Below are positions 3,010 to 59,869 of a DNA stretch of 64,000 nt, in pieces. Location of the stretch: the NCBI GenBank assembly GCA_030141605.1, contig JAQGDQ010000485.1, positions 62,001-126,000 of the forward strand. The letters run 5' to 3'. Made by a program: the position numbers and the translations under genes. Within the stretch, counting starts at the first letter, position 1, and each line of letters opens with the position of its first letter. The notes beneath the pieces were generated by a model. That model was given only the letters and a program-made list of their open reading frames with translations, did no database searches and was not told the DNA's origin. Source of the stretch: Tubiluchus corallicola. Taxonomy: Eukaryota > Animalia > Priapulida.

Positions 3010-3495
3010 AGTAAGGATTTCCAGAGATAAGAAGCATTTGCCAGAAAAACTGGATTTCTAAGCGACTGTACTGCAACTTATAGTGCAAAAATAAAAACCG
3101 CAGCACCAAAATGATTAAGCAAGATACTCCAAGCACGTTTGTCAGCATTTACGAAGCAATGATGAGAGATCCCGAGACCACATCATCCGTTAAAATAGCA
3201 ATAATTCATTGTATATCAATGTTATGGTTTTGTAATCTGTCAAGTGGATTAAGGTAACAGATTGAATGGCTGAAGGGCCAGCGCTGACTTGGCTGTAGTA
3301 AACCATGCAATCATACAGTACAATTTTCACACGAGGCACAGCATTTCCTAAAGCAATACAATTTTCATCAAAGTGACTTTGTAAAACTTGGTGTAATAGC
3401 ATATGTAACATGTAACAAATGGACACATTTTGTAAATTAATAAGCTGTGTGCATTTTAGGTTCAAACTGCGGAATAAATTGTTGAACAAAGCAAC

Positions 3496-3888
3496 ATGGA
3501 GCCAACGATCTACTTCAAATGTACAGCTTGTTCCGAATGTTTTATGTCAGAGGACGTCTTTTTTGCGCACACCCGTACATGGCATTGTAAGATACTCATT
3601 AGTGAAGGCCAAGGTGAAGAGTCTGCTTGCACCGAATACGCAACCACTGCCAAAGAAGGACTTGATGCTGTTGGTCGTGAAGTTGTTGTTGATTGTGATA
3701 GTAACAGAAGTGCATATGAAACTCGAAGTGAGCACAATGTTAGTTCTGATGCTTTTCTCGTAAAAAGTAGTTTTGCCGATGTTCATATTAAGGTGGAACC
3801 TGGATCGGAATTAGGCAACAATTGCGCACCGTACGGTATGAACATGGATGAAATGATATGCGCACAAAGCAGTGGTGATGTTGCTTTG

Positions 3889-3921
<33 letters not shown>

Positions 3922-4413
3922 AATGACAAGGAGGAGTATGAAACTGCTCGGTTGCCTAGCTCCTTGCCGCAGCCACCGTACACTCGGCAGAAATCATTTC
4001 AAACTGGCCGTGTACGAAAACCTCGTTCGCAACAATTTACTAAGCATGTGCCAACTGCAAGTCGTCGCGAAGAAACAAAGACCTTTAGAAGTCATTTACC
4101 AAGCACTCTGATTGTGCAAGCAGGTACAGAACGGCCTGCTGATGGGAAACCAAGAAAGCAGTCGGCTTTCATCTGCCGATACTGCAGAAAAGCTTTTAAG
4201 TCGTCTACGAATCTTCGACGCCACGAACGCGTTCACACCGGTGAAAGACCGTTCGTCTGTTACGTATGTTCAAAATGCTTCACAGATAAGTACGACCTAA
4301 AGACCCACATGAGGACCCACACAGGGGAAAAACCTTATGTGTGCTGCGTTTGCCAAAGAGCCTTCACCCAGTCCAGCCACTTGAGCACTCACATGAAGAC
4401 GCACCGTGATTGA
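3496..4413 (+). CDS. C2H2 zinc-finger protein, array copy 1 (N-terminal zinc module, poly-Asp tract, 3 fingers)
   Basis: 305-aa ORF; three CxxC...HxxxH fingers with TGERP/TGEKP linkers; acceptor TGCATTTTAG ending at 3459. Confidence 0.93.
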
Positions 4414-4438
4414 AGAGTATGGTTATACAACTGTACAC

Positions 4439-6285: not shown

Positions 6286-7038
6286 CTGTTGGTGTCAAGC
6301 AATTTAATCTAGCATTCTATCATCATTTGTTTTCTTTTCGTATTTTTACAAACATGCATTTCCTGAAAGTGTTTAAAACGAAGCCAGCCTTAGTCATGTG
6401 ACGTAAGCTTTAGTAGTATACGCCATCTATCAATCACAGTTGTTTTTACACGTAGTTAGATTTTCTGTTGCCGCTATGCTGATCATGCCGTTTGGTGATA
6501 CTTGCATTGCTTTTTCTATTTTGTTACAATTTAACAGTCACTAGTTGTATTTTCAAGCCAAAGATGTCACCAGTAAATGCAAGTCACCATCTACTTTAAT
6601 AATTAGTTAATAGTTTAATTTGGTTAGAATTGCTTCAAATCTCTAGAATCATAAAGAAATAATTTGTGTTTCAGTCTTCTTAAATCTAACTTTTCATTTT
6701 GTCTAAATAGTAATAACCTTTAGCACATTCTTAAGCACTTTTTGTGATCTGTTATTTTAATAAATTGCAGGTCTATTGCGCAGTTCAAATAACTGATTTT
6801 TGCCGTTTCTTTGCCTGGACTGGGTGCATCCACAGTCATCTCTATTATCTCTGGAAACTATGTGGCCAAGATACTTCTCTGTTTCGCACTTGTTGTATGT
6901 TTCTTACTAGTAAGGAGAGGCAAAACATACGGAGACAATGTTATTTTGGAATTATGTGGCAAGTTTTGCCACTAATGTAGCTATTTTTTACTTTGCAAAA
7001 TTATTATCATGTAATTTTAGGTACCGACTGAAGGGTAA

Positions 7039-7863
7039 ATGGCTGAAATTACCATGGAACGTACGATCTACTACAAATGTACAGCCTGTTCTGAATGTTT
7101 CATGTCAGAGGACATTTTCTTTGCGCACACCCGTACCTGGCACTGTAAAATACTAATTAGTGAAGGTCAGGATGCAGAGGCGTCTACGGAGGAGGAAAAT
7201 TCAGTGTGTCCAGAGAAATTTCTTAGTGTGGCTGACGGTAATTGCTTCTTGGTGTCAGACATGGTTGCAGACAACATCTGGGTTGATCATACAGTCGAAA
7301 GTACTCCATCCGTAGACTTGGATTCAGAGCAGTTAGGAAGTGGATTTGTTAAAAGTGAACCATCGCCTGACTTAGAAGAGAAATTTGACATTTACAGTAT
7401 GAATACACAGAGCTGTGGTACATCGGGTAATAATCAGTTGACGACAGGTAAATCCACACCTGATCTATCCGTGTTTCCTTTCAATATGCCATCCCCAACG
7501 TACATTCAGCAGAAGCCACATGGAATGCATCGTTCACAAAGAAAAATCTTATCAAGTCTACGGAAGAAATCAAAAATTGCGCTCTCCAGGAAATCTTCGT
7601 CGTCTGCAGGCCATTCAACGAAAGCGAGAATTCTTCCGACTCTTGCGGACGAGCCCGTGGAAGGGCAGATAATAAAAGAATCTGCTTATTTCTGTCGATT
7701 TTGCAGAAGAGCATTCAGCCGACCTGCGCACGTTAGACGACACGAACGAATTCACACGGGTGAAAAACCTTTTGTGTGCGCAGTTTGTCAGCGTGGCTTC
7801 AGTCAATTGTGTAACTTGAAGGGTCACATGAGGACACATGATTTGAAAGACGTCACAACTTAA
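7039..7863 (+). CDS. C2H2 zinc-finger protein, array copy 2 (2 fingers)
   Basis: 274-aa ORF with the conserved N-terminal module and two fingers; acceptor ATGTAATTTTAG ending at 7020. Confidence 0.92.
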   Translation: MAEITMERTIYYKCTACSECFMSEDIFFAHTRTWHCKILISEGQDAEASTEEENSVCPEKFLSVADGNCFLVSDMVADNIWVDHTVESTPSVDLDSEQLGSGFVKSEPSPDLEEKFDIYSMNTQSCGTSGNNQLTTGKSTPDLSVFPFNMPSPTYIQQKPHGMHRSQRKILSSLRKKSKIALSRKSSSSAGHSTKARILPTLADEPVEGQIIKESAYFCRFCRRAFSRPAHVRRHERIHTGEKPFVCAVCQRGFSQLCNLKGHMRTHDLKDVTT

Positions 7864-11082: not shown

Positions 11083-11168
11083 GTTTTGATTGAGAAATCA
11101 ATCGTTGACGAGCTGAACTAATTCAAACGACATGGGAGCCAACAATTTACTTCAAATGTACAGCCTGT
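11083..11168 (+). pseudogene. Displaced, decayed original 5' end of ZNF copy 3
   Basis: Acceptor TGTGCATTTTAG, then ATGGGAGCCAACAATTTACTTCAAATGTACAGCCTGT (MEPTIYFKCTAC with a 1-nt insertion), cut off at 11168 by the copied cassette. Confidence 0.85.
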
Positions 11169-11521
11169 ATAAACTGTACTTATAAAAACGTCGCCATGTT
11201 GCCATACTATAGAATGAATTACAATACGAATTGAATGCTATTTGTACAATGATAAAATTTTCTCAAGATGCTGTTTGCTCTAACATAGTAAATACTTCTT
11301 TATCTAATAATGTCAATGTCGTCCCTATTATCTCTGGAAACTATGTGGCCAAGATACTTCTCTGTTTCGCACTTGTTGTATGTTTCTTACTAGTGAGCAG
11401 AGGCAAAAAATACGGAGACAATGTTATTTTGGAATTATGTGGCAAGTTTTGTCACTTATGTAGCTTTTTTTTACTTTACAAAATTATTATCATGTAATTT
11501 TAGGTACAGACTGACGGGTAA

Positions 11522-18140: not shown

Positions 18141-18993
18141 ATTAGCAAGCTCCCCAGTAAATGTCAGCGCTGTGCTTCATTTTCAATCTCCCACAATCAT
18201 GTACCAAACGTAAATCAAGGGAAGAAAAGGCAATGTTAAATTATGTCTCAAAAGACTCCGTGCCACATAGATTTTCGCTTACTTGCTGGAAAGACTTATG
18301 TAACTGGAAAAGAAAATTATTAATTATTTAAAATGTTTTCACCAATTGGTAAAATGTCGCTGACTCACTCTCCAGGGTGCCCCACTCACTAACCAAAAAA
18401 CGTATTTTTAGTCTTATTGACAAGATACAGTGATTTTAAATTTTGTTTAGTTAGTGACTTGTGCACTACGAATGCTCTGATTATTTTTTCAAACTTTACA
18501 AAATGTTATCTAATCTTGTTTCGAATGACCTGTCGTGAAAATGGCTGCGTCTAACGGTCATCGCGGAAGTTTAAATTTACATGTTTTATACAGCGTGACT
18601 GCCGATTGAAGTCCTGCATGCAAAAAGGCAGTATGTAAGTGATATAAAATTTCAAAACGAATTTTTCAAGTTTATGTTTATGAAGGGTTTTCTTGTGCTT
18701 TAAGCAATTTTTTTTGTTCACTCTGAAAAATATTTGTTCTGCACCAATCAAATATGCTTGCTTTGAATACTGCCATTTTTAATTTATCATGAGATGTGTA
18801 AATGAATGTGTGTGAATGTGTATTTTCTATTTCATACAAAGATTTACCATGCTCAAACAAACTTTTTGCACTACTCTATAAATAGTCACTGTGTTTGCAT
18901 ATAGTGATAGTTTCTTGTTTGCCGAAATGCAAATTAAAGTGTTTGGGAAAGAAACTAATAATAGTCGTTTGGATTTTAGGCTGATGTAAGAAA

Positions 18994-21900
18994 ATGGCGG
19001 ATCATACTTCATCTACATCATCGTTATCTGTGGATGAGGAAATTGAACGCCTGCGCAGTTTGTACCCGGAGAAGTTTACAGAGTTGTGTCTCATGCATCT
19101 TACATTTGCCCTAGAGCTAGGGACACAGGCGCTAAATGCACTACTAACTGACAGAAATTCTAATCCTAAAAAGCCAAGACCCCAGACGCCATTCTCCAAA
19201 AGAGAAAATTCTGATGCTTGTATGAAAAGTAATAATTAATGTTATGCACATACACGTTCCTTCCCTGTTAAATTTGGTCTTGCCCCTTTAACTGTCATCA
19301 GTCATGTGACCAGGTAGTTGGCCAGGTAGACATTACCTGACATGCAATTCAATTGATACGATGTGAAATTTGTAGTAGATTTCAATTGTTTTTTTTGCAA
19401 GTTATCAGTGCCAAAACTCAGGGAGACCACATGTAAGTGTCTAATTATGTTTATTGAACTGCTTTATGCTATTAGAACAATTTCGCTTTTATTTTTTTGT
19501 ATAATTATAGACGAAAATCACGTAACCTAATTTAGTAATGTACCTTTATCAAACTTATGTTTTTCGTTGAAAAGTTATTGCTGTAATTTATTATTACAGA
19601 TAAAACGACAAATGCTGCATATTAAACATATTTAATGTTCTGGAGTTTAAATGTAGTACAATTAAGATTCTGGTTGCAACAGAATCTTCTTGATTTACCC
19701 ACGTTTTTTTTATTTTCTTATTTATTTGTTGTTGTTAATTTTGAATGGCATTGTAACTTCTAACAAATATGTGTTGTAGCTCAATTTTGTGTCATGCTTC
19801 CATTAGTATTACTGTCATAAAAACTTTAAAGTAAAAAAAAAGTTTTTGAGATTCCTTTACTATTCAGAAATTTAAAAATATACTGATCTTACTAAAGGAT
19901 GCTAATAACCAAATCTGTAATCGCAAAAAATGTGTGTTTTTATCTTTTAATCAACTGATACATTGAGTTTCTTGTAGTACTTTTTTATTTGTTTATCTTG
20001 AAAGTTTTTGCCTTTTTTTCCAGGAGAGCAAGGTATATTTGGTGCACCTTTGACACGGGAAGGCATTTCCAAAGTCTTTCAGCTGATACAGTTTTTAGAA
20101 AGAGATGACAGTAAGTTTTACTGTCATCAATATGAGCTACTATAATCAATAATGATCTGTAGAATTCAGTACAATATCAAGCATGTGGTATGAATCTTTA
20201 TCATACTTTAATCTTCTACAAACTGGACTAGTAAATTTCTAGAATTTTTACTGAAAATAGAAGTAGAAATGTTCATTTATATTCTAAGATGTTGTGTAAA
20301 AATGATCGCATTTATCAGGTCTTGTATAAACTGATTATTTTTATTTGTGTAATTTTCTTATGTCTATCCTATTACCAAAGAATCGTTTACCATTGCTTTT
20401 ATGCTACCACAAACATTTCTTGTCCATAATACATCTTTGTCTGACCTTCCAGACATTAAACAAGTGGGACTATTCAGAAAAAGTGGGCAAGCCACTCGAC
20501 AAAAGGAACTGAAGTCTCTGCTGGACAATGGAATTACATTCGATTTGGACTGTGGTTATTTCAGTGCGCACGATTGCGCTTGTGTCTTGAAGACCTTTTT
20601 GGGGGAGTTGCCTGAGCCGTTACTAATCGACAGCCACTATGCTCCACACTGTTTGGTGCCAGGTAATGTTCCATGGAATGTGAACTTTATCAAGCAATGT
20701 TCCTGCTGTCCTGTTCTTTATGCTATTTCCTGTTTTCAATTAACGATGAAAATTCATTTTTTTTTACATTTTTTCATGCACACAGTAAAGTATTATAAGA
20801 TAGAAATGTAAAGCATAGGGTAGGGAAGTCAGTTTTAAATCTCATATTTACAAACTTTTCCGAGAATTATGTGGCGTCTAAACTAACATTATAATATTAA
20901 AATATTGCCAGTAATTTACCATTTGGGTTTCGTATATTTATTTCTGGAGAAATTCTGGAGCATTAGAAATCTAAAAATTATCTGGCTATCTAACTTTTCT
21001 AATTTTAACTTTTAAAGAAATCTGTCATGAAGGGTCAGTGGGAGATGCAAAGAAAAAAGCCTTTCAACAGCAAATTAGAGCCGTACAGCTTTTAATACTT
21101 TTACTGCCACAAGAGAACTGCAGGTCAGACGTTTTTTTTTCTACTTCCAGTGTTTAAGACTGAGAAAATGTTTTAGTTTAGAGAATGTTGTAAAGTGAGC
21201 AGAAGTAAGCAAATATGTTTTAACCCTGTTTGAAGCATGTTAACGGGGGTTAGGATCTTCTTTGGATAAAGGTATTTTTTCCTAGCTTTTGTGTGTAAAT
21301 GAATACAAACTCATTTCATTTGTAGCAAATGTTTACATGATAATTTACACGTAGGGCAATTTCCATGCCTACACAAATACTTAGACAAGTTCAGTTAACC
21401 AAACACCGGAACATAATACCTCACGGTTCAGCAAGTTTGCAAGCATTCTATGATTTCAAAAAAAAGGGGTGGAAGTTACCAACATTAATCACGCGAGGAC
21501 CCTAATATTAGTTAAACAAGATAGCTATCACTACACAACCAACCAACCAGGCGATCTATAAAAAAACTGCACAAAATCTTTACAGGACAAACAGATTAAA
21601 TTTAGTGTGCAAGTGTTTCCATTATAGTATAAAAGCATAAATGCAATCCAGAGTCACATTCAAAATTGCACAGCAAACTAATTACCGATACTGCATTTTG
21701 AAGATAAGTTGTACAATTGAAAAAAAGGCCAAACCCTCTGGGATGTTAGGCTTATTTCAATGTTTGTGAAAAACTTTAGAAGGAATAAAGGTGCAACAAG
21801 CCCCTCGTGCAATTAGTAAAAGCATGTTAAACAGTTCGCGTTTGGGCGCTCACACTTTAAACGTCTGTTCTCCCACCAATGATGTCATTTGTCGACTGAA

Positions 21901-24900
21901 AAAAGCAACACGCTGTAAATTTACATCAAAACATCAAAAATAAATGTTTTCTTACAAAAAATTAAATTTTATGATATTTTTGCATGAATATTAGGTAAGC
22001 TACAGCATGTGCTTATGGAAAGCCACGAGGCACTTTATGAATTCGACCAGTAACATCATAGTTTTCAAGTGAATGGCGGTTGCCACCTAGCTTAAAAATT
22101 TCTTTATAAGATAGTATAAATTAGCTTTATGCTTCACAAGACAGTTTGTTTTGCAAATTTGTCATATTTTCGTAAGTCCAAATGATAACAGTAAAATAAA
22201 GCCAACGTACTAAATGACTCGTATTTGCCTTTAATAGCTTGTAATCATAATTAAATACGTATAAAATATGTCAAGACGATGGTAATAATAAAATATAGAA
22301 ATCAATGATCACAACAGCTTACCTCAAACAATTTTGGAGCATTCTGAATCATAAATGATACAGCTTTGGTCATATTTGCAGCAGTTTTATGCAGTTCTGT
22401 AGCAGTCATCTGGTAAATAAAGGCAACGTTAGTAAAACCAATTTTTAACTTTTAAAATTGTCGTTTAAAAAGTGAGATAACCTATACAACATACAGAAAG
22501 CACAGTGATTATTTCATCCGCTGTGCTATAGGTCCTAACCACAAAGGATGCAGAATGAAAACCCAAGACCCATACTAACCTTAAAATGATAGACTTTACC
22601 TTTTTCCTTAAAGCTCTCTGATCCAACTATTAATGAATTTTGTAATTTTTACATTACGAAAGAAGAAGCAAAATTCCTGTCAAACGCAAATACTTTTAAG
22701 GCAGTAGTCAGGTAACTAGGGAATTAAAAGGTGGTGAATGAAGTATTAGTAGGGTTAATGAACAGGGTGCATGAGATTATGGATATCCATAAAATAAGAC
22801 CAAAAATCCATAAAATGAAATTTGAAAAATCCATAAAATAAGAAATGCATAAAATAAAAAAATATTTTTTTTTGACATTTTTTTGTACAAAATAAGGCAA
22901 TCAAAACTGAATACAGGCATTGGATCGGAAACTTCAGCCTAGAGGGCATTCTACATTCGTACCAAATAGATGAATTATTTGAACTGAAGTGATGAATTAC
23001 AAGGCACTGTCTCGTAAAATTTGATTAAATTTGAAGTGATATGAAACCGATAAAATTAAAACGAAACCGATAAAATTACAACTGAGTCCTGGGTGTTTAA
23101 AAACACGTTTCAAGCACTCCTGTTTTTTACTTTTTAATTGATTTCTCCCTGGGCATCTCTTTCCACATATAGTCTATTTCTTATTTTATTGATATCCATA
23201 AAATAAAATTTCAAAAATCCATAAAATAAGCTATTTTATTTATTTTATACATATCCATAATCTTATGGACCCTGTTAATGAATGACAAAAAACAAGGGAA
23301 TTTGATGCTACTTTTTTGAAACACTTTAGCTAAATGCCTTATTTAACTTTTTTACAGATTGCTAAAAGATCTTTTAAACCTCTTACACCGTGTTACAGAA
23401 GCTCAGTCTGATAACAGAATGAATGCCGATAACCTTGGAATGATGTTTGCTCCACACATTTTGTGTCCTCGAAAGGTAATTATGTACTGACTAGTTGCTT
23501 TCACTAAAAACTTATTACAGTCTAGTCTCGTTATCTCGCCACTGTCCGTCTAGGGCAAATTTTTGGCGAGAGGCGAGTATGGCGAGATAACGGGAATATA
23601 ACGAAGTTAGTCTATATGTATATACATAATAGTTGATTAACATAGTGTTCCTCTATGTGCATGTAAAATATATTTCGCACTATGATACCAACCAACATTA
23701 GATAAATACAAATTTCCTTTTTTTGTTCAGGATTAAGACAAAACAGTTTTCGCTTCAGAGACATCATGTAAAGTTGCTCACACTTTGTGGAAACTCAAAC
23801 TTAAACGCAGCTTTGGTGTTATAGAGTAAGGTTATCGGTGACGCTTTAGTTTCTCTGCGCATTAACCAACCAACGCACTCCTAATCTAATCCTGGTGAGA
23901 CACACACTAGACTAATTATGTCTGTTTATTGAGTACAGCAGCATTGTCTACATACCGCGGTTATATTGATCGACACGCGGTATATGTATTGATCGATTCA
24001 CCTCTGAGTTTGTCTGTTTGGCGACATAACGAATATAGTTTACATAAGCACTCATCCTAGCATGACGTGGCGAGGGCGAGAAGCGAGGGTGGTGACTTAA
24101 CGAGGTAAATATCAAAGCAGGAAATCCGTCCTGGTACTTTCTATGGCGAGAGACAAGTTTGGCGGCATAACGAGGCTATAGTATACATTGTTTTTCATTT
24201 GCTTGGATTGCCTTACTTATCATAATTTTTTTGTCTTTGTACTATCATTTTTGTACTATCAAGTCCCTAGTTACCTGACTACTGCCTTAAAAGTATTTGC
24301 ATTTGACAGGAATTTTGCTTCTTTCGTAATGTAAAAATTACAAAATTCATTAATAGTCGGATCAGAGAGCTTTAAGGAAAAAGGTAGAGTCTATCATTTT
24401 AAGGTTAGTATGGGTCTTGGGTTTTCCATTCTGCATCCTTTGTGGTTAGGACCTATAGCACAGCGGATGAAATAATCACTGTGCTTTCTGTATGTTGTAT
24501 AGGTTATCTAACTTTTTAAACGACAATTTTGAAAGTTAAAAATTGATTTTACTAACGTTGCCTTTATTTACCAGATGACTGCTACAGAACTGCATAAAAC
24601 TGCTGCAAATATGACCAAAGCTGTATCATTTATGATTCAGAATGCTCCAAAATTGTTTGAGGTAAGCTGTTGTGATCATTGATTTCTATATTTTATTATT
24701 ACCATCGTCTTGACATATTTTGTACGTATTTAGTTATGATTACAAGTTATTAAAGGAAAATACGAGTCATTTAGTACGTTGGGTTTATTTTACTGTTATC
24801 ATTTGAACTTACGAAAATATGACAAATTTGCAAAACAAACTGTCTTGTGAAGCATAAAGCTAATTTATACTATCTTATAAAGAAATTTTTAAGCTAGGTG

Positions 24901-27900: not shown

Positions 27901-28397
27901 GGAGAGAGGAGGCAGTATGTTCGCATGAAGCAAAAAAATGTTACCTTGGCGCGAGGCCCCCCTGGAGGGTGAGGCCCCGGGGAAGTATCCCCACTTCCCC
28001 CCCTTGAGATAGACCCTGGCTCAAACTAATTTTACTGAAGCACTTCCTAGTTCTCTCAGCAGTAATTTTTGTCCAGATATTGTCTGGTAGATTAGTATTT
28101 ATATTCAATTCTAACGATTCTGAACATAAATTGTATGATGTTAATATTATTTATATTACGGAGTTTACAAGTTACGATTCTTGTTTGACTTTCACTTCAC
28201 GTGATGCCAACATATTTTTCATTCTTTTTGCTGCTGCAAATATGAAAGCAGGACTGTTTATCTTTATTTTATTATGTGCCGTTTTTCAGTTCAACAAGCA
28301 AAATGGTTATGGAACACCTGAACACCCGTCCAAGAAGCATGTGCGGAGCAAGTCAGGTGGCGAGGCTTTTTCTTTGTTATATAAAGGTTCCGTGTAA
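18994..28397 (+). CDS. ARHGAP19: Rho GTPase-activating protein, ARHGAP19-like, multi-exon; 3' end uncertain
   Basis: Phase-consistent GT-AG exons: 18994-19228, 20024-20110, 20453-20662, 21018-21123, 23358-23475, 24575-24661, 26360-26479, 27259-27438, 28290-~28387/28397. Peptides PEKFTEL, GIFGAPLTREGI, GLFRKSG, LKTFLGELPEPLL, NRMNADNLGMMFAPHILCP and MPDSSKKRKLIKQFNKQ match ARHGAP19 as recalled. An acceptor ending at 18979 precedes the ATG. Further exons (~29535, ~32021) are possible but unresolved. Confidence 0.9.
21352..22722 (-). repeat. Inverted duplicate of 24264-25632, with an antisense copy of RhoGAP exon 6 at 22323-22409
   Basis: Continuous reverse-complement match over ~1.37 kb with a few substitutions. 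Confidence 0.95.
22763..23274. mobile_element. hAT-type MITE
   Basis: TIR CAGGGT(G/C)CAT(G/A)AGATTATGGATAT; perfect 8-bp TSD TTAATGAA. Confidence 0.9.
23518..24183. mobile_element. Tigger/pogo-like MITE
   Basis: Starts TA|CAGTCTAGTCTCGTTATCTCGCC; right end GGCGGCATAACGAGGCTA is a degenerate inverted match; internal GGCGAG repeats. Confidence 0.6.
25695..26087. mobile_element. Tigger-like MITE
   Basis: TIR CAGTGTTCCCTC / GAGGGAACACTG with TA flanks; related copy at ~56706-57188. Confidence 0.88.
27634..28018. mobile_element. GC-rich hAT-like MITE
   Basis: TIR C(A/G)GGG(G)CCTATTTCA; TSD CCTCAAAC/GCTCAAAC; an inverted shorter relative lies at 29008-29242. Confidence 0.8.
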
Positions 28398-40664: not shown

Positions 40665-40720
40665 GTTCTTATTTGGATGGTAATCATTCGACGAAAAGAA
40701 GACTGATACCTATGGAGCCA
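40665..40720 (+). pseudogene. Displaced, decayed original 5' end of ZNF copy 4
   Basis: Mutated acceptor TGTAATTTCTCG|GTT, then ATGGAGCCA at 40712 fused through GCCA to the copied cassette. Confidence 0.6.
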
Positions 40721-41059
40721 TACTATAGAATGAATTACAATACGAATTGAATGCTATTTGTACAGTGATAAAATTTTCTCAAAATGCTGTTTGCTCTAAC
40801 ATAGTAAATATTTCTTTATCTAATAATGTCAATGTCATCCCTATTATCTCTGGAAACTATGTGGCCAAGATACTTCTCCGTTTCGCACTTGTTGTATGTT
40901 TCTTACTAGTATGGAGAGGCAAAAAATACGGAGACAATGTTATTTTGGAATTATGTGGCAAGTTTTATCACTAATGTAGCTTTTTTTTTACTTTGCAAAA
41001 TTATTATCATGTAATTTTAGGTACCGACCGAAGGGTAAATCGTATTGGCTGAAATCACC

Positions 41060-42061
41060 ATGGAACCTACGATCTACTTCAAGTGCACAGCCTGTTCTGA
41101 ATGTTTCGTGTCAGAGGACATTTTCTTTGCGCACACCCGTACATGGCACTGTAAAATACTCGTTAGTGAAGGTCAAGATGCAGAGACATCTACGGACGAC
41201 TTTGAAGTATTCAGTGGTAAATGTAATTCAGATAACATTTATGACATTTCTTCCAATGACAGTATGACTGAGTGTACTACTATAAGTGGCAATGCGAGTC
41301 CCGATGTACATGTTACAAAACAGAACTTCATGGGAAATGCTGTACAGCAAGAATCTGTTTTAGAGGAAGACATTATGATTGATGGTATAGATGTCTACAA
41401 TGGTACAAGTTTTCAAACAAATACCGACACTACTGAATTACATAATCACGCCAGTGATGTCTCAAGTAACGAGGAAGAGTCGCAGAAATGTAATGATCCA
41501 TGCGAATTACATTATGTTAAGCAGGAGCAGTACCAATCGTGTCACGGAGAGCACAAAGTGTTGACACAAACGCTAAGCCAAATGGTATCTCAAGCATTTT
41601 CCAATCAGCTTGAAAATACAAAAATGCTGCAAAAAGTTCATTCGGCAAGAACTAATTGTGTCAGGAGAATGAAAAAACTGCAATGTAGCAGTGCAGTGCC
41701 CTTTGAAGGAAAGATTATGAAGCAGTGTGCTTATTTGTGTAGATTTTGCAGAAAAGCATTTAGATCTGCTGCACATGTTGAAATGCACGAACGAATACAC
41801 ACAGGTGAAAAACCTTACTTTTGCAACGTGTGTGGAAAGGGTTTCAGTCTTGAAGGTAACCTCAAAATTCACATGAGAATACACACGGGCGAGAAACCGT
41901 TCTCGTGTAATGTTTGTGAAAAAAGCTTTAATCTCAAAGGGAATCTGAAAACACACATGAGAGTTCACACTGGTGAGAAACCCTACGTGTGTTACGTGTG
42001 CCACTGGCGCTTTTCTCAATCATGTAATCTGAAGTCTCACATGAAAACACACTGCGATTGA
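41060..42061 (+). CDS. C2H2 zinc-finger protein, array copy 4 (4 fingers)
   Basis: The ORF track starts at TTG 41045, but a 5-nt insertion removed the first ATG, so the likely start is ATG 41060 (MEPTIYFK); acceptor ending at 41020. Confidence 0.92.
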   Translation: MEPTIYFKCTACSECFVSEDIFFAHTRTWHCKILVSEGQDAETSTDDFEVFSGKCNSDNIYDISSNDSMTECTTISGNASPDVHVTKQNFMGNAVQQESVLEEDIMIDGIDVYNGTSFQTNTDTTELHNHASDVSSNEEESQKCNDPCELHYVKQEQYQSCHGEHKVLTQTLSQMVSQAFSNQLENTKMLQKVHSARTNCVRRMKKLQCSSAVPFEGKIMKQCAYLCRFCRKAFRSAAHVEMHERIHTGEKPYFCNVCGKGFSLEGNLKIHMRIHTGEKPFSCNVCEKSFNLKGNLKTHMRVHTGEKPYVCYVCHWRFSQSCNLKSHMKTHCD

Positions 42062-47815: not shown

Positions 47816-47817
<2 letters not shown>

Positions 47818-47858: not shown

Positions 47859-47863
<5 letters not shown>

Positions 47864-48563: not shown

Positions 48564-48647
48564 GCTGTTACATGGCATATAATTTGACTGAAAAGCTATG
48601 ATGTGATTTTAGGTTCTCACTGAGAAGTAAACCATTATTGAACAGCA

Positions 48648-49454
48648 ATGGAACCATTGGTCTACTTTAAATGCACAGCCTGTTCTGAATGTTTTGTTTC
48701 TGAGGACATTTTCTTTGCACACACCCGTACCTGGCATTGTAAGATCTTGATTAGTGAAGGTCAGGATGCGGAAACAGAGGATGAAGATGAATATTCTATC
48801 TGTGCTGGCGAGTTTGAAAGTGCAGCTGACGATAATTCTTGTACAATATCCAGTGCTTCTGTATGTGAGAAAATCATTGATTATACAGCTGGTGATTCTG
48901 AAAGTGACAAATACGTTGATCATAATAAGGAAAGTGATATTAAAAGTGAGCCAATGCCTCAATTCGGTGAGGATTTTCCAATTTTCGAGACTAATGCTCG
49001 AAGCAATGATCACAGTGCGGTATTAGATGATGGTCCAGCCAGCACCATAATAAATCAACTACATCTTTCTGACTTTTATTCAGGGGTGCGACATATTCAG
49101 GAGAAACCACATCAAATACCTGCTAGTCAGAGCAATGTTTTACCACAGATAACACTACACCAAAGTCAAAAGAAAATTAATAAAATATGCTACGCGAAAA
49201 AATTATTATCGTCTAAAGGACAGTCGGTAAAAACGACAATCGAACCATTCGGCTCGGCTGAAAAGCAGCCGCGAAAAGAGTCGGCTTATTTCTGTCGCTT
49301 TTGTCGGAGGCCATTTTGTGCGCCTGCACATCTAATACGACATGAACGAATTCACACAGGTGAAAAACCTTTTGTGTGCTCCGTGTGTCAGCGGGGTTTT
49401 GCCCAGGCGGGTAACTTAAAAGCTCACATGAAGACGCATCGTATGCCTGATTGA
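48648..49454 (+). CDS. C2H2 zinc-finger protein, array copy 5 (2 fingers)
   Basis: 268-aa ORF with the conserved N-terminal module; acceptor ATGTGATTTTAG ending at 48612. Confidence 0.92.
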
Positions 49455-49526
49455 TGTTAGTGGTAATTAGTGGAGCAGTGTGGATTACTTGCATGGACCT
49501 TAAGGGAAAGGACAAGTCATTCAGCT

Positions 49527-50060
49527 TGTTGGGTTTATTTTACTGTTATCACTGTTAGAAAACTCTAACAAAGAAATTTGCAAAGAACTGCCCATATAGT
49601 ATAAACTTAAAATATACTACCTCTGAATAGAAATTTTCAGGCGCAGTGGTTGCCGCCATTCACTCGACAATCATGATGTAACTGGGAGACTTCGTGACTT
49701 TTTGTAAACTCGTCATGGCTTTCCGTAACCATGCGCTGCTTAAAACTGATTCAAACTTCTGCAGCTTACATAATGCTCATGAAAAAATATTACAAACTTA
49801 GCTTTGTAATTTCTTTGTAAAAACTTAATACACTTTTGGTGAAGATTGACAGTGCGCTACTTTTCTTCAAGACGAATGACGTAGCTGGAAGAAGAATGGG
49901 TATTGAAAATTGGAGCGCCCAAGCATGAAATGATCGCGACTTTAAAGTGATTTTACTAGTTACACAAGGCGCTTATTGCAGCTTTATTACTAAATCCTTT
50001 TAGCATTTTTTGTGAACATTGAAATGAGCGTAATCTCTTGGGAAGCTTGGCCTTTCCTTT
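49527..50060. repeat. Old interspersed repeat related to 24778-25260
   Basis: Shared GTTGGGTTTATTTTACTGTTATCA, CCGCCATTCACT, GAGCGCCCAA and AACATTGAAAT in the same order. Confidence 0.65.
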
Positions 50061-50195
50061 AAGTATGTGTGAACAGAACCATTATGAAAGTAACAACAGC
50101 AGTGTTTCAGTTGAAATAGAATCTTGTCAACTCTTATGTGCAGCTGAGCCTGTATGAAGTCATTAAATTATTTTTCATTTCTATGACTTTATTAA

Positions 50196-50728
50196 AGGAA
50201 GACCGGACGATTGTTTAGACTCAATCTCATTTTAATTTACTGTCCAAAATATACATTTTCGTGCCTGTAGAAGTTAACAATTGTTCCTTATATTTGAATA
50301 ATCAGCTTAGAAAGTTAATTAACGGCAACTGAACACGGCCATTGCTTACATCAAAAACTAACCACAGTTTGTGCAATGGCAGGTGCCTACCCTTGCGGGT
50401 CAAGCACGTTTGCGTAAGTGTTACTTCTTAAATGCATGATGTCACGAAAAATGGGCTTTACATCATATGACATCATGAAACTAACACAGCAGTTCATGGT
50501 CATGGTTATCACGGTACCGCCTTCTATTTGTCGTGACAAAAAGGCGCCGCTGCCAATCTTAGTAGATTCACTGAGCCGCTCGTAGCTTTGAAAGTTTAAC
50601 TAAATTTGAGTATCCGAGGTAATTATTATTTAATCTAAGCTTTGATTTAAAAAGAGATATTGTAGTTTTCAATATTTTAGAGCATTCTTTATTCTGAACT
50701 CGTGTTTACACAATCATCCGGTTTTCCT
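50196..50728. mobile_element. Kolobok-like MITE, opposite orientation to 45001-45518
   Basis: TTAA|AGGAAGACCGGACGATTG ... CAATCATCCGGTTTTCCT|TTAA. Confidence 0.85.
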
Positions 50729-51048
50729 TTAAGGATTTTAGGAAAATGAATCTTTTTTTCTGTTTTTGTTCAGTGCCTCGCTTTCCGGCATTTCACAATT
50801 AATTTATTAATCCTGTGACTTAATGTGTACAAAGCTGAATGCAAATTTAAACTATTTTTGTAATGTATAAAATTCAATAAAACAATCTAATTTCTTAATT
50901 TAATCTGTTAGTATCTTTGCAAATAAGAATAGAACAAAATAGATCACCGGAAAGTTTAAAATATCACATGAACCTAAACTGTCCTTTGTACTGCTTTCAC
51001 ATGCATTTTAGGTTTTTCTTGGTGAATAAAGATTGATGAACAAACACA

Positions 51049-52074
51049 ATGGAGCCAATGATTTACTTCAAATGTACAGCTTGTTCTGAGTGTTTTATGT
51101 CAGAGGATATTTTTTTTGCACACACCCGTACCTGGCACTGTAAAATACTAATTAGTGAAGGTCAGGATGCATATACCTCTACCTTGCATAGAGCCGGATC
51201 AGTTTTTGACGCGAAGACTTACATTTCCACTGAGGAGAGTTTTCATGCAAAAAATGACATTTATAGATCCAGTGGTGTTCAAGCTAATGAAGAGAAAAGC
51301 AGATGTACACCGGCAGTTTCGACTGACCTTCGTGGTACCCCCCATTCTCTCCTTGATGAAGGTACTTTAAAAGTGGAGCCAAGCTCTGAACTTGATTACT
51401 GTTTAATGGCAGGAAGTGGGAGTGCAAGCGAAATGGTAAGTTCGCTAAATTATGCCAGCAGCATTACTGTAAGTAATGTAGCGTGGAAACAATCACCTCG
51501 TCTTTTGTCAAGTGAATCATCTGTTTATCAGGCCGCACGGGGAAAGGTTTTTTCCCAGGAAGTAAATCAGACATCAGAAAATAAAGTGAAACAGTGGGAT
51601 AAGAAAAGTGTGCTTGGTAAAGCAAAGATGTTCAAAGATCAGTACAGTACAAGCAGAATGCAACCTTCTCCAAGAGCAGATTTTTCGCAGCCAAACAAAG
51701 AAGTGCATATTGAAACGCAAAGACCTAAGAGAAGGACAGTGTATATCTGTCACGTTTGTGGTAAAGCGTTCAGATCAGCTGCTCTTGTTGACCAACATGG
51801 ACGCATTCATACAGGTGAAAAACCTTACTCCTGTGATGCGTGCGGAAAAAAGTTTACTTTTGAGTGGAACCTAAAAACTCACACTAGAATTCACACCGGT
51901 GAAAAACCATATTCCTGTCACGTGTGTGGAAAAAGTTTTGCTGTAGTGTCCAACTTGAGAGCCCACGTGAAAATTCACACAGGTGAAAAACCTTTTACAT
52001 GTTCAGTTTGTGAAAAAGGTTTTACTCAGAATCGTGACTTAAATAAACACTTGCTGATACACAGTAATTTCTGA
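51049..52074 (+). CDS. C2H2 zinc-finger protein, array copy 6 (4 fingers)
   Basis: 341-aa ORF with the conserved N-terminal module and four fingers with TGEKP linkers; acceptor ATGCATTTTAG ending at 51011. Confidence 0.93.
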   Translation: MEPMIYFKCTACSECFMSEDIFFAHTRTWHCKILISEGQDAYTSTLHRAGSVFDAKTYISTEESFHAKNDIYRSSGVQANEEKSRCTPAVSTDLRGTPHSLLDEGTLKVEPSSELDYCLMAGSGSASEMVSSLNYASSITVSNVAWKQSPRLLSSESSVYQAARGKVFSQEVNQTSENKVKQWDKKSVLGKAKMFKDQYSTSRMQPSPRADFSQPNKEVHIETQRPKRRTVYICHVCGKAFRSAALVDQHGRIHTGEKPYSCDACGKKFTFEWNLKTHTRIHTGEKPYSCHVCGKSFAVVSNLRAHVKIHTGEKPFTCSVCEKGFTQNRDLNKHLLIHSNF

Positions 52075-55843: not shown

Positions 55844-56224
55844 AGTGAGAAGTTTCAATTTTAGTTTCTATGCAAGTTTTCAGTGAGGCAAATCAAATGA
55901 TGAACTTTGACCCACATCTGATTGACCCTTGCCCCCAGGTCACGGTCAAGAAGTGACAAGTTCTGATTTCATTGAAATTTGAAACTGTTAATATCAAGCT
56001 CAACAGTACTTAAGTACATATTATTTAATTATTCTGAAAAAAATTTCAATGTAAATACGAAACAAAAACTGTTACTTAAAACATCTCCCTGTCCCAGAAG
56101 CAGAATCTTACCAGAGTTTCTGTCACCATCAAAACTGTTCACTAGAGATTCATAAATTATTATGATGTTACATGATGTCGAACTATTACTTAGTCGTCGG
56201 ATTCACTGAACTCAAGATTATGGA

Positions 56225-56620
56225 TTAGAAATGACGTCAGTGCCGCCGTCTTGAATTTAAGAGGGCAAATCAGAAATCTGACTCTGTCAGTCGATGCAGT
56301 GTGCGTTTTAATTTATTTCTGTAAAATTTCATGATGGTGCATTGAGAATTGGCTGAGTCTTAGGCTTTTTGAAAATCACGCTATTGTCACCATCATGAAT
56401 TTAATAAGGCAAATCAAGAATTTGACTCCAACAGTCGATGCAGAATTCATTCTAGTATATTTATATGCTTCGTGCGAATTGGCAGAGCCTTAGCCTTTCT
56501 TCTAAAGTAATGTTGTCACAGCTATCTTGAATTCAGAATGACAATTCGAAAATCGGACTCCATCAGTCGATGCCAATTTTCCTCTAGCATATTTCTGCAA
56601 AGCTTCATGACAATCTTTTC
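56225..56620. repeat. Degenerate tandem repeat, 3 units
   Basis: Recurrent (C/A)T(C/T)GAATT...AAAT...GACTC..CAGTCGATGC at ~56250, ~56395 and ~56525. Confidence 0.6.
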
Positions 56621-56705
56621 CAAATGACGTTATTTTGTAATTACAATTATGTTACTAATTAATTATGAAATCTAAATTGAGAATGGGGGATCAAAAACCC
56701 AACTC

Positions 56706-57188
56706 CATGTTCCGTTCCAGGCCCACCCGCGATAAGTGAATTTCCGTGAGGTAGGCACACTATACTTATTTTAGTAGTTATACATTATTTTAAGTTTTCA
56801 TAAACCTTCCCCACACTCTTATGCATAACACTTTCCATCAGTCAACCAATCGTATATTGTGTACAATCTCACCTGGGCAAGTAGTGTCTCAAGCGGGCAC
56901 AAGTACTACATTTCGTTTTTGGTGTGTATTCATCCGCCGAATAAATACACTATTTACTGTAAATGGTAATTTTTCATGATTTATAATATTCTTTTAATGT
57001 TAGAATTAATATTTTTAATATATTTTTATACATTTTGTGATTTTTTATGCAAAATTCATCAAATCTATACTTTACTGTACAGTACGTACTACGCATGTGC
57101 AAAAATATTTTAGACGGAGTACCGCAAAAACCCGCGAAACAGCGAAAATACCGCGATAAACGAACCGCGAAGTAGCGAGGGAACACTG
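56706..57188. mobile_element. Tigger-like MITE, relative of 25695-26087 with the left end missing
   Basis: TGTTCCGTTCC.GGCCCACCCGC.ATAAGTGAATTTCCG ... GAGGGAACACTG|TA. Confidence 0.8.
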
Positions 57189-58498
57189 TACACTAATGCA
57201 GTCAGTTGATGTTTTGCAAAGCTTGCAATCTTTTTGACAAATACGATGATGATACTCTGTAGTGGGTTTCTGTGCCAATAATTACAGCCATTGCCTACCT
57301 TTGTGCCTGCTCTGCTTACCTAACCACCACGCGACAGCAACATTCCACATGCTCCTCTGCTTGACTGTCTATTATCTATCACTAACTTAGTGTCAGTAAA
57401 CAATAACCTGTTTAGGTTCAACACCTCTAACCATTATATCTATTTTTATGCTTGTTAGAACTGACAAAAATATACCTAAACCCTTTCTTGGTGTAGTGGC
57501 AAATGGTGTCAGCCACTTTTTGTTTTCACTGTAGTGACGTCTGTCGCATTTTTTTCAGATACTGTGTAGTATCTGATCTGTATGCAAAATTTCTCTCCAT
57601 GAATACAAGCTATTTTATGATTATAATTACACTCCTGCAAAAATGAGAATATAATCACCTCTCAAAAAACTAGAACTATAATATGTAAACCTACTCCCAT
57701 GACCTTCTTTCTCCAAACTGTTTTTAGCACTATCCTGTTCTCACTGACCTACCTTGCTTTTCCTTTTTCACATTTATTACATATTTTTTTCTCTCTAGTA
57801 CAAAGTACATATACTAACAAATGCCAGGTGCCACTTGCTGGTTGGCCGCTGCTTTGCGATATGCTTCAGTGAAACCTAAAGACATGTGCTCACACTTAGC
57901 ATAGCCTCTGTGGTTAACGCATTTCTAGGACCAATTTTTACGTTTGTTTTCATAAACAAGAAATCTGTTCAAATCTGTTCATAATTGTTCAAAGAGGAAA
58001 AAAGTTCTATTTGTAATGTTAAGAATGAGGACAATTGAAATGAACAATGTATTGTTAAACTAATTCATATTGAATAGAATGCTAGTCTAACTGTATTTCT
58101 ACTGGCTGTGCCACTTAAATTTAGGTCGTGAGCCGCTACTGTGTTACATGTTGCATCTGTAGGTTGAGTACTAGTGTTATTGAACCTAGGTAATAACGCA
58201 AACTTGAGCATTAATTTTAGTATTTTAATCACATAATCACTATATGTATATATAGTTACATTGACTTAAATTTAACCTTCAATTGTTTATGTGTGGAGCA
58301 TAGAATTGTCTTATGTGGAAGAAAAAATGCCACAATGAAAAACAAAAAACATCTATTGAGTCACATGTAAACATTGGTGACGAGGTGTTTAGAAATGTTT
58401 CGTTGTGTAGATACTACGTGTAGATAGCTGAACATTTCTCATGTAATTTTAGGTTATGACTGAAGGCTAAACATTTTAAGACAAGCAAACGATTCAAC

Positions 58499-59869
58499 AT
58501 GGATCCTTTAATCTACTTCAAATGCACGGCCTGTTCTGAATGTTTTATGTCAGAGGACATTTTCTTTTCGCACACTCGAACCTGGCACTGCAAGATTCTT
58601 GTCACTGAGGGTCACGATGCAGAGACTGTGCTTGATGTTAGCTTACATGCTTTTAGTGAAGATGACTCTGATATAGTTGACCTCAGTTCTTCTGGCATGT
58701 GTAACTCTACTGCGATGAATGACAGAAATGAATGTGCTACTCCAAAAGGCAATGCTGTTGATACTAGCTCACTTGCAAAGAAATATTTGGATGATAATGG
58801 TGTAAAGATTGAGCCAGTCTCTCAGTTAAACGATGGTATTACAACAGATGATGCGAGTGAAGAAGACCAAATCATGCGCATTGAAAATAGTGCAAGCATT
58901 GTAGCTCCATTTGATACTCGAGATGCAAGCATGAAGGATCCAGAAAGTGAAATCCTACCTCAGCCAGTAGATGAGACATTTGTCCAACAGGAACCGACTT
59001 TCAAGTTTATAGATGACAACGCTGGCATTGTAGCGCTGGCTGACGCTCATAGTACTAACAGAAAAGACCAGCAAAGCAGAAGCCCACCTCCGTTTACAAC
59101 AAAGGAAACACACATTAAACAGGAACCATCAGTCATGTGTGTAGGAGATAGTGCAGGCATTTTAGTTTCAGATGATGCTCATGACACTAATGTAGAACAT
59201 CAACAAAGTCCGAATCCATCTCAGCTTGCTGGTGGAAAGACGTGTATTCAACAGGAATCGTTCAAATTATCTGATGTGTCTGATTACACCTTGCTGGAAG
59301 CAAAGTGCTTGCCTCATAGAGGGAGGTGGACAGTGAGAAAAAGGACACATCTTGATAACTTGCCAGACATGTTTAAAAATCATATTACGAAAAAGAAAAA
59401 ATCCGAAAGAAAACAAGTGCCAACGCTCAAGCCTTTTGGAAAACAAAATACAAGAGAATTTGCATATCAGTGCGGGAAAGCATTTCAATCAGTTGCAGAA
59501 GTCGAAATGCATGACCGCTTTCACACTCATGCAAAACAGTACTCTTGCAATATCTGTAAAAAAGTCCTTTCTTCTAGAAGCAGTTTGAAGTCGCATTTTA
59601 GAAGTCATACAGGTGAAAGACCGTTTGTGTGTTCGTTTTGCAAGAAAGCTTTTCTACAGACCGACGCTCTGAGATCACATTTAAGAATTCACACGGGCGA
59701 AAGACCGTTCATTTGCTCTTTTTGCCAAAAGGGTTTCGCTCAGTCTAATAATCTGACGGCACATATTAGAATTCATACTGGCGAAAAACCGTTTGTGTGC
59801 CGTTTTTGCCAAAAGGGTTTTGCACAGTCTTCCAACTTGAGAAGTCACAATAAGACGTGCCGTAATTGA
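58499..59869 (+). CDS. C2H2 zinc-finger protein, array copy 7 (1 degenerate finger plus 4 fingers; internal 44-aa repeats)
   Basis: 456-aa ORF with the conserved N-terminal module; last finger ends HNKTC (C2HC); acceptor ATGTAATTTTAG ending at 58452. Confidence 0.93.
   Translation: MDPLIYFKCTACSECFMSEDIFFSHTRTWHCKILVTEGHDAETVLDVSLHAFSEDDSDIVDLSSSGMCNSTAMNDRNECATPKGNAVDTSSLAKKYLDDNGVKIEPVSQLNDGITTDDASEEDQIMRIENSASIVAPFDTRDASMKDPESEILPQPVDETFVQQEPTFKFIDDNAGIVALADAHSTNRKDQQSRSPPPFTTKETHIKQEPSVMCVGDSAGILVSDDAHDTNVEHQQSPNPSQLAGGKTCIQQESFKLSDVSDYTLLEAKCLPHRGRWTVRKRTHLDNLPDMFKNHITKKKKSERKQVPTLKPFGKQNTREFAYQCGKAFQSVAEVEMHDRFHTHAKQYSCNICKKVLSSRSSLKSHFRSHTGERPFVCSFCKKAFLQTDALRSHLRIHTGERPFICSFCQKGFAQSNNLTAHIRIHTGEKPFVCRFCQKGFAQSSNLRSHNKTCRN

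What the first reader, a model, noticed from the sequence alone, without database searches (positions are those of the whole stretch)
3448..58501. Every intact ZNF exon starts with five codons (mostly V-x-T-E/D-x) and TAA before a separate ORF: candidate array of bicistronic alternative terminal exons
Seen: reading phase 0 from each acceptor gives VQTAE* (3460), VPTEG* (7021), VQTDG* (11504), VPTEG* (41021), VLTEK* (48613), VFLGE* (51012) and VMTEG* (58453). TAA is always at exon nt 16-18, and third positions vary (GTT/GTA, ACT/ACC, GAA/GAG/GAC). The stop-to-ATG spacer varies freely (18, 0, 0, 21, 17, 19 and 28 nt), so the ZNF ORF cannot be a conserved in-frame extension or readthrough product. 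The three dead copies act as controls: 11083 has TCA instead of TAA, 40665 has 16 nt before TAA, and 62019 has 14 nt before TAG. Copies 2-4 share a converted cassette, so about five observations are independent. Inference: an upstream exon supplies an ORF that terminates inside whichever ZNF exon is chosen, and the ZNF is translated as a second cistron by re-initiation or leaky scanning. This resembles the alternative-last-exon logic of Drosophila lola and mod(mdg4), but with the constant part uncoupled by a stop. I found no repeated upstream coding exon before each copy, which favours a shared exon outside the window. Alternative: the motif (all have TAAA) is an RNA-level splicing or translation signal.
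Basis: partly seen in the sequence, partly recalled or inferred. Interest (0 to 1): 0.92.

Follow-up and report, generated by a model that had tools for sequence, protein, structure and literature searches.

The report
Zinc-finger genes behind one shared leader
In a worm that is likely a priapulid, seven complete zinc-finger genes each open with a splice-acceptor sequence, five codons and a stop codon at a fixed place, and they are likely alternative endings of one shared leader whose short reading frame would stop there before each protein is started afresh.

Summary
All 7 intact exons read TTTTAG|GT, five codons, then TAAA, and 3 of 3 decayed copies have lost this. Neutral drift rarely gives it (P 0.0007-0.025).

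The host is priapulid-like. Each exon encodes a whole protein with an unnamed N-terminal zinc domain; all 16 named relatives are from Priapulus caudatus.

Two new results favour a shared upstream exon:
- Only 447 non-transposon bases, with no credible donor, separate copies 5 and 6.
- In P. caudatus, three family members with no shared coding sequence are named isoforms X1-X4 on one scaffold.

The translation half of the claim is untested. No splice junction or upstream ORF was seen, codon periodicity is borderline (p=0.065), and a same-strand RhoGAP19 gene splits the array.

Best reading (0.45): a shared leader with a short ORF ending at the TAA, followed by re-initiation or leaky scanning. 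Boldest reading (0.15): the five codons are the tail of a split-off copy of the zinc domain.

The parts
3460..4413 (+). Copy 1: acceptor at 3460, five codons, TAA 3475-3477, ZNF ORF 3496-4413 (305 aa)
7021..7863 (+). Copy 2: acceptor 7021, TAA 7036-7038, extra ATG 7039, homologous ATG 7054, ORF to 7863
11083..11200 (+). Decayed copy: acceptor intact, TCA in place of TAA, frameshifted and truncated ORF start
11201..11503 (+). Cassette about 95% identical upstream of copies 2, 3 and 4 (also 40717-41020; 6150-6286 plus 6835-7020); no donor-like site above 2.7 bits
11504..12463 (+). Copy 3: acceptor 11504, TAA 11519-11521, extra ATG 11522, homologous ATG 11537
18980..28370 (+). RhoGAP19-like gene on the same strand, splitting the array; its first coding exon also starts at an ATTTTAG acceptor 14 nt before the ATG, without the five-codon/TAA pattern; C-terminal third not found
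40665..40730 (+). Decayed copy: broken acceptor, 16 nt before TAA
41021..42061 (+). Copy 4: acceptor 41021, TAA 41036-41038, ORF 41060-42061 (333 aa)
48613..49454 (+). Copy 5: acceptor 48613, TAA 48628-48630, ORF 48648-49454 (268 aa)
49455..51011 (+). Spacer between copies 5 and 6: two TTAA-flanked transposon-like inserts (about 49500-50062 and 50190-50736), 447 other bases, single AATAAA at 50876, no credible donor outside the inserts
51012..52074 (+). Copy 6: acceptor 51012, TAA 51027-51029, ORF 51049-52074 (341 aa)
57859..57890 (+). Stretch antisense to the acceptor block of all live copies; marginal against controls, an unconfirmed lead
58453..59869 (+). Copy 7: acceptor 58453, TAA 58468-58470, ORF 58499-59869 (456 aa)
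62019..62254 (+). Decayed copy: 14 nt before TAG, frameshifted domain, cut by a transposon-like insert at 62255
41060..41185 (+). Example of the conserved N-terminal zinc domain (about 40 aa: C2H2 core with a strand on each side) that opens every ORF; no Pfam family's best-scoring stretch falls on it

Best explanation
The seven exons are likely alternative last exons that are spliced, one per mRNA, to a shared upstream leader outside the window, and the leader likely carries a short AUG-started frame that would run five codons into the chosen exon and stop at the fixed TAA. Each exon encodes a complete transcription factor (own N-terminal zinc domain, linker, 2-4 DNA-binding fingers; shown), which would be made from its own strong-context ATG 15-28 nt further on, by re-initiation or leaky scanning (inferred). 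Selection would keep the first 15 nt free of frameshifts and keep the stop, because otherwise the leader's frame would run over the ZNF start; the spacer after the stop is free (pattern shown, cause inferred). A stop in the last exon would also avoid nonsense-mediated decay. The RhoGAP19 gene in the middle means copies 4-7 need same-strand nesting, a second leader, or trans-splicing (undecided).
For: Fixed TAAA in 5 of 5 lineages against 45% identity of the bases before it; neutral P 0.0007-0.025; lost in 3 of 3 dead copies. Identity by codon position in codons 2-5 is 0.62/0.40/0.27. Only copy 7 has a second phase-0 stop before the ATG, so the TAA is the only terminator in 6 of 7; all seven homologous ATGs have A at -3 and G at +4. 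From the copy 5 stop to the copy 6 acceptor there are 447 non-insert bases, with AATAAA 136 nt before the acceptor and no credible donor. No upstream element other than repeats and the cassette is shared among copies. P. caudatus XP_014668407/408 (X1/X2), 410 (X3) and 411 (X4) lie on scaffolds of the same length (269,587) and share at most 9 identical residues in a row; that NCBI groups models by a shared splice site is recalled, not verified (one search found no source). Several P. caudatus members have 2-4 accessions for one protein, as spliced UTR variants give. Re-initiation after short ORFs: PMC6013234 passages. Stop in the terminal exon is NMD-immune: PMC3951408 passages.
Against: No junction, leader or upstream AUG was observed, and no listed run is on record as RNA. 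Periodicity is borderline (p=0.065). The stop is always TAA plus A, never TAG or TGA in live copies, which fits a nucleotide motif as well. The +2 frame is also closed in 7 of 7 copies. The P. caudatus locus is another branch of the family, not the orthologue, and its DNA could not be read, so the five-codon pattern is unchecked there. The second isoform-named P. caudatus group is explained by chimeric models with shared coding sequence and gives no support. A same-strand multi-exon gene interrupts the array. The other spacers hold 1.7-4.9 kb not matched elsewhere in the window, enough for private promoters. A 15-28 nt gap is short for efficient re-initiation (recalled).
Confidence: 0.45

Rival explanations
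1. The exons share a non-coding leader, and the conserved block from about -12 to +19 is an RNA-level signal for exon choice (a splicing-factor site, or a selector that pairs with a docking sequence). The TAA is then not used as a stop.
For: TAAA is invariant at all four bases, and conservation extends into the intron (TGYA before TTTTAG). One stretch, 57859-57890, can pair with the block of all seven live copies at -20 to -25 kcal/mol. Sharing of non-coding first exons is known: 130 fly genes (PMC4528330 passages).
Against: No common structure is predicted. The antisense stretch is matched by 1 of 31 column-permuted controls and lies inside the array, just before the last intact copy. Third positions vary most. 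One dead copy has TAG at the homologous place.
Confidence: 0.2
2. These are ordinary separate tandem genes, each with its own promoter and small first exon (with or without an inherited uORF that ends at the TAA).
For: This is the usual layout of clustered C2H2 genes (recalled). The c1-c2, c4-c5 and c6-c7 spacers hold 1.8-4.9 kb of sequence unique in the window, with about one donor-like site per kb. It needs no splicing across RhoGAP19. Other P. caudatus members on one scaffold are named as separate genes (XP_014674169 and XP_014674171).
Against: The copy 5-6 spacer has no credible donor outside two inserts. Upstream regions share no homologous first exon, though the acceptor block is still alignable. 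The cassette shared by copies 2-4 carries no good donor.
Confidence: 0.18
3. The array is operon-like: each exon is trans-spliced to a general spliced leader, with the upstream poly(A) site close to the next acceptor. An AUG in that leader would be ended by the TAA.
For: AATAAA lies 136 nt before the copy 6 acceptor. The first coding exon of RhoGAP19 also begins at an ATTTTAG acceptor 14 nt before its ATG. It would remove the problem of the interrupting gene.
Against: One search returned 3 papers, none about priapulids by title or abstract start (listing only). No SL RNA family matched the window. RhoGAP19 lacks the phase-0 stop. A general leader would not align in cis and so would not join models into one annotated gene (inference).
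Confidence: 0.07
4. The pattern is only inherited and homogenised by gene conversion; it has no function.
For: Conversion is evident: copies 2-4 are 93-97% identical in the domain, and synonymous identity is higher in the domain than in the fingers for 20 of 21 pairs. Only five lineages are available and the motif was picked after the fact.
Against: Bases on both sides of TAAA are diverged and the spacer has six different lengths. Even 'any invariant 4-mer' arises in only 0.07-8.4% of neutral runs. All 3 dead copies lost the pattern.
Confidence: 0.1

Closest known systems
Drosophila lola and mod(mdg4) (BTB constant region plus alternative 3' zinc-finger exons, partly or wholly trans-spliced; PMC11426971 and PMC4528330 passages, PMC13490949 abstract)
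   Same: Tandem array of acceptor-led single exons, each with a different set of C-terminal fingers; likely one exon per mRNA.
   Different: There the variable exon is fused in frame to a constant BTB domain. Here a stop closes phase 0, no phase gives a fusion in all copies, and every exon brings its own ATG and N-terminal zinc domain.
Genes that share a promoter and 5' non-coding exons but no coding sequence (130 genes in FlyBase, e.g. Ip259/RpS27A; PMC4528330 passages). The cholinergic ChAT/VAChT locus is a recalled example.
   Same: One leader, alternative downstream exons with complete and non-overlapping ORFs.
   Different: The examples seen are pairs of genes; here it would be a paralogous array of at least seven, with a stop held at a fixed phase.
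uORF-controlled and bicistronic animal mRNAs (MTPN-LUZP6, SNURF-SNRPN, LASS1-GDF1 in PMC3951408 passages; DENR-MCTS1 re-initiation in PMC6013234 passages; 159 fly dicistronic pairs in PMC4528330)
   Same: An upstream frame that ends before the main start, with its stop placed so that the mRNA escapes decay.
   Different: Those are fixed pairs. Here the second cistron would be exchangeable by splicing, and the end of the first frame is repeated in every exon.
Lineage-specific N-terminal modules of C2H2 families (arthropod ZAD, seen in search listings; KRAB and SCAN recalled)
   Same: A conserved small N-terminal domain in front of a fast-evolving linker and finger array, expanded in one lineage.
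   Different: A different, unnamed domain (C2H2 core flanked by two strands); every named hit is from Priapulus caudatus; self-association was not tested.

Membership tests
lola/mod(mdg4)-type BTB-ZF locus | Variable exon continues the constant reading frame | tested here: not met
   Phase 0 is closed in 7 of 7; the ZNF frame differs among copies
lola/mod(mdg4)-type BTB-ZF locus | Constant BTB domain at the N-terminus | tested here: not met
   In the 56 credible family hits the zinc domain starts within the first 100 residues; no BTB in 80 + strand frames scanned from the two large intervals. Sequence outside the window is unseen.
lola/mod(mdg4)-type BTB-ZF locus | Several alternative 3' finger exons joined to one upstream exon | tested here: inconclusive
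   Array and acceptors present; no junction seen; indirect support
lola/mod(mdg4)-type BTB-ZF locus | Trans-splicing from separate promoters | not testable with these tools
   Needs allele-resolved RNA; all copies are on one strand, so there is no strand clue
Genes sharing 5' non-coding exons | Complete, non-overlapping ORFs with own start codons | tested here: met
Genes sharing 5' non-coding exons | Same donor spliced to more than one acceptor | tested here: inconclusive
   Not seen in this species; implied by isoform names at a paralogous P. caudatus locus
uORF or bicistronic mRNA | AUG-started frame upstream that ends at the TAA | not testable with these tools
   Leader not found in the window; no whole genome held
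uORF or bicistronic mRNA | Frame and stop kept by selection | tested here: met
   that the cause is translation is inferred (periodicity p=0.065)
uORF or bicistronic mRNA | Conserved peptide product | tested here: inconclusive
   Only five residues visible; Val is forced by the splice consensus, Thr in 4 of 5 lineages, the rest vary
Spliced-leader operon | SL RNA in the organism and the same leader on unrelated mRNAs | not testable with these tools
   No SL family in the window; no priapulid report evident in the listing
Spliced-leader operon | Poly(A) signal about 100 nt before the next acceptor | tested here: inconclusive
   Met for copies 5-6 (136 nt); the nearest AATAAA lies 262 nt to 1.5 kb upstream of the other acceptors checked
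Docking/selector exon choice (Dscam-like; recalled) | One site complementary to a conserved selector at every exon | tested here: inconclusive
   57859-57890 pairs with all live copies, but 1 of 31 controls does as well; covariation untestable

The most novel reading that the evidence does not exclude
The array arose by fission of a gene with two tandem zinc domains. The shared leader encodes the first domain up to its last strand, every alternative exon supplies that strand (the five codons) and stops, and the second domain plus fingers is made from the same mRNA as a separate protein. Each mRNA would yield a constant domain-only protein of about 40 residues and one exchangeable transcription factor. 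Support: the five codons match L-I/V-S/T-E-G, the end of the exons' own domain, best of 260 positions; 3 of 60 family proteins have two tandem domains, two of them with linkers about as long as the stop-to-domain distance here. Against: found after the fact, the column-shuffle p for the DNA match is only 0.04, position 2 tolerates Pro and Gln, and no such leader exon is in the window.
Probability: 0.15. Interest if true: 0.9.

Novelty: new variant of a known kind. Interest (0 to 1): 0.62.

Why it matters
If confirmed, it is a way of running a transcription-factor repertoire that differs from lola and mod(mdg4): one promoter and leader would choose among whole genes by splicing, while a frame ending in each exon sets how much protein is made. 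New paralogues could enter the repertoire by copying about 300 bases of cassette, without a promoter. It would give a natural series of seven stop-to-start spacings for testing re-initiation against leaky scanning in an animal. It also points to an unnamed N-terminal zinc domain, with at least 56 distinct relatives, in a phylum that is central to ecdysozoan evolution but barely studied. One long-read transcriptome would settle the main question.

Tried and rejected
RNA evidence. No RNA holder was listed. Laying runs X1 and X2 on 40500-60200 showed no joint at a ZNF acceptor among the rows printed (15 joints shown, 76 not shown). X1 covers introns like genomic DNA. X2 is only guessed to be RNA, and one of its contigs lies on 49387-49465, which I do not count as expression. 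A closer read-level look at copy 7 was not obtained, so the splice partner stays unknown.

DNA of relatives. No whole genome is held, and no relatives were found in metagenome contigs (0 of 58 pattern matches confirmed), so the motif could not be checked in other paralogues or species.

Search for the leader in the window. All negative: blastn among upstream regions; Pfam on 80 + strand stop-free frames from 12464-18980 and 28246-40680 (not all frames listed were sent; one hit, a lone PHM exon); domain profile over six frames (best stray hit E 0.2; a TWHC-like stretch near 31980 has E 0.49). A three-codon ATG-donor candidate at 35364-35372 is at chance level (0.29 such donors expected).

RhoGAP19 as the constant part: rejected, because three copies lie upstream of it. 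Each ZNF splicing to the next: rejected, no phase-0 donor near the ORF ends. PHM as the constant part: rejected, only one exon is present. The second P. caudatus isoform group (XP_014670583-595) was dropped as evidence because its models share long coding stretches.

RNA structure and pairing. No consensus structure at the acceptors. The antisense stretch at 57859 first looked strong against 4 independent shuffles, but that control was too lenient; with column-permuted controls p is about 0.06. It does not align as an inverted dead copy. The acceptor block also weakly resembles the reverse complement of finger-coding DNA (E 0.4-5), which shows how easily 30-nt likenesses arise here.

Protein structure. 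Atlas and fold search (no match with E<=0.001) gave only generic C2H2 likeness. The domain tree has few columns and weak support.

Literature. Nine searches listed no paper on this family or arrangement; the library lacks most subscription journals, and no supplements were read.


Full report
What is there. The + strand holds seven intact single-exon ORFs of 268-456 aa. Each has 2-4 C-terminal C2H2 fingers and a nearly invariant 40-residue N-terminal domain (88% mean column identity). Each is preceded by TTTTAG|GT, five codons, TAAA, and a spacer of 15-28 nt before the homologous ATG. All seven of those ATGs have A at -3 and G at +4. Three decayed copies have lost the pattern.

Is it more than chance? 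Copies 2-4 share a recently homogenised 5' cassette (94% in the intron, while their fingers are 59-69% identical), which leaves five lineages. Among them TAAA is invariant, exon nt 3-15 are 45% identical, and synonymous fourfold sites of the domain are 53% identical. In a neutral star-tree simulation (15,000 runs for each of 6 settings), the first phase-0 stop stayed at nt 16 in all five in 0.07-2.5% of runs; any invariant 4-mer arose in 0.07-8.4%. The observed retention of 0.66 is closest to the strictest setting, and the simulated indel rates gave fewer distinct lengths than observed, so the test is conservative. By hand, 0 of 5 live against 3 of 3 dead disrupted gives 1/56. The block is therefore under some constraint. 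Whether that constraint is translational is less clear. Identity by codon position is 0.62/0.40/0.27 (permutation p 0.065). The stop is never TAG or TGA in a live copy. The +2 frame is also closed in all seven, at varying places. A conserved fusion is impossible, because the ZNF frame lies at offsets 0, 0, 0, 0, 2, 1 and 1 from the acceptor.

Organism and family. A RhoGAP19-like gene lies on the same strand between copies 3 and 4; its best hit is Priapulus caudatus at 72%, with the next at 59-62%. A profile of the N-terminal domain found 58 proteins among 1.84 billion representatives, two of which look spurious. Of 30 looked up, 16 are named, all P. caudatus, and 14 are unnamed assembly records. 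In all credible hits the domain starts within the first 100 residues, leaving no room for a BTB domain in front. The model is a C2H2 core with a strand on each side (pLDDT 75), with no significant fold match. These exons therefore encode self-contained proteins, unlike the variable exons of lola or mod(mdg4) (PMC11426971 passages; PMC4528330 passages; PMC13490949 abstract).

Evidence for a shared upstream exon. A kept acceptor needs a donor. Between the copy 5 stop and the copy 6 acceptor lie 1,557 bases, of which two TTAA-flanked high-copy inserts take all but 447. The remainder has one AATAAA, 136 nt before the acceptor, and its best GT scores 1.3 bits, against 2.5-7.0 for six RhoGAP19 donors on the same recalled matrix. 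Donors inside the inserts (up to 3.5 bits) and GC donors are not excluded. No element other than repeats and the cassette is shared upstream of the copies. In P. caudatus, three family proteins that share at most nine identical residues in a row are named isoforms X1/X2, X3 and X4, with near-consecutive accessions on scaffolds of identical length. I recall that NCBI's pipeline groups models that share a splice site; I found no source for this. Three similar proteins from an unnamed record each list a longest contig of 7,155 nt, which suggests a compact array in another species. A second isoform-named group is explained by shared coding sequence and was dropped. The supporting locus is on another branch of the family (weak tree), so it is an analogue, not the orthologue.

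Evidence that is missing or awkward. No RNA run on record holds the stretch, and no junction at a ZNF acceptor appeared among the rows shown. No leader was found in the window by Pfam (80 frames), domain profile or donor scan. The same-strand RhoGAP19 gene means copies 4-7 need nesting, a second leader or trans-splicing; FlyBase curators treat same-strand nesting as unremarkable (PMC4528330 passage). The other spacers could hold private promoters.

Mechanism. The most economical reading is a shared leader whose short frame ends at the TAA, followed by re-initiation or leaky scanning. Re-initiation is described for short upstream ORFs (PMC6013234 passages), which argues for a small uORF over a long first cistron. 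A stop in the terminal exon escapes decay (PMC3951408 passages). Shown: the anatomy, the constraint, the lack of fusion, the tight copy 5-6 spacing. Inferred: the shared donor, the upstream AUG, translation of the five codons, the mode of restarting. I put the shared leader at about 0.7 and the whole model at 0.45.

Two leads. First, the five codons score best against the last strand of the exons' own domain (rank 1 of 260 five-residue windows, about 4 SD above the mean). The DNA block also scores best there among 254 windows, with a column-shuffle p of 0.04. Three of 60 family proteins carry tandem domains. This suggests fission of a two-domain gene and predicts a domain-coding leader. Second, 57859-57890 can pair with the acceptor block of every live copy, but 1 of 31 proper controls does as well. 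Both were found after the fact, and a third weak likeness to antisense finger DNA warns against over-reading them.

Novelty. Alternative finger exons, shared non-coding leaders (130 fly genes) and dicistronic mRNAs (159 fly pairs) are each known. Nine searches (listings only, apart from the five papers cited) showed no report of this family, or of an array of whole genes behind a phase-locked stop. Earlier scan notes on other genomes describe in-frame lola-like arrays (unchecked); none was found for this genome or sequence. Verdict: a real, selected pattern and probably a new variant of alternative-last-exon arrays; the bicistronic claim awaits RNA data. Interest 0.62.

Noticed in passing
window 33101-33199 (+): A lone exon of peptidylglycine alpha-hydroxylating monooxygenase (82% to P0078, 72% to the P. 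caudatus protein), with a good acceptor, no matching donor and no other PHM exon in the window; it lies between two 212-nt repeats that are 99% identical (32554-32765, 33719-33930). Probably a captured gene fragment.
   Followed up: partly
window 21352-22725 and 24261-25632: Inverted duplication, 98.8% identical, inside the RhoGAP19 gene; it includes one coding exon (24572-24664, mirrored at 22412-22320). Recent duplication or assembly artefact.
   Followed up: no
window 28290-28400: The last RhoGAP19 exon found matches residue 406 of 672 in P. caudatus; the C-terminal part was not detected anywhere in the window. The gene may be truncated or too diverged.
   Followed up: partly
window 46776-46893 (+): 5S rRNA-like sequence (50.5 bits, above the gathering score) at the head of a very high-copy repeat; probably a 5S-derived SINE.
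   Followed up: partly
window 6150-7180, 11170-11670, 40717-41193: Gene conversion tract covering a dead-copy remnant, the acceptor and the N-terminal domain of three copies whose fingers are only 59-69% identical; copy 2's fingers are closest to copy 5's.
   Followed up: partly
P0057, P0058, P0074-P0076 (P. caudatus): Annotated isoforms combine three versions of the N-terminal domain with different bodies at one breakpoint; either real combinatorial splicing or mis-joined models of near-identical paralogues.
   Followed up: no
window 1406-3013 and 63157-64000: Tandem arrays of 43-nt (37 copies) and 56-nt (15 copies) units near the two ends of the window.
   Followed up: no
window 37201-38178 (+) and 5395-6185 (-): Open frames that look like the ends of LINE retrotransposons (by eye; no Pfam hit for the first). 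The second abuts the dead-copy remnant upstream of copy 2.
   Followed up: no
window 43176-43697, 44997-45522, 50190-50736, 62256-62814: Four copies of one TTAA-flanked element, 73-88% identical to the third; the last cuts the dead copy at 62019.
   Followed up: partly
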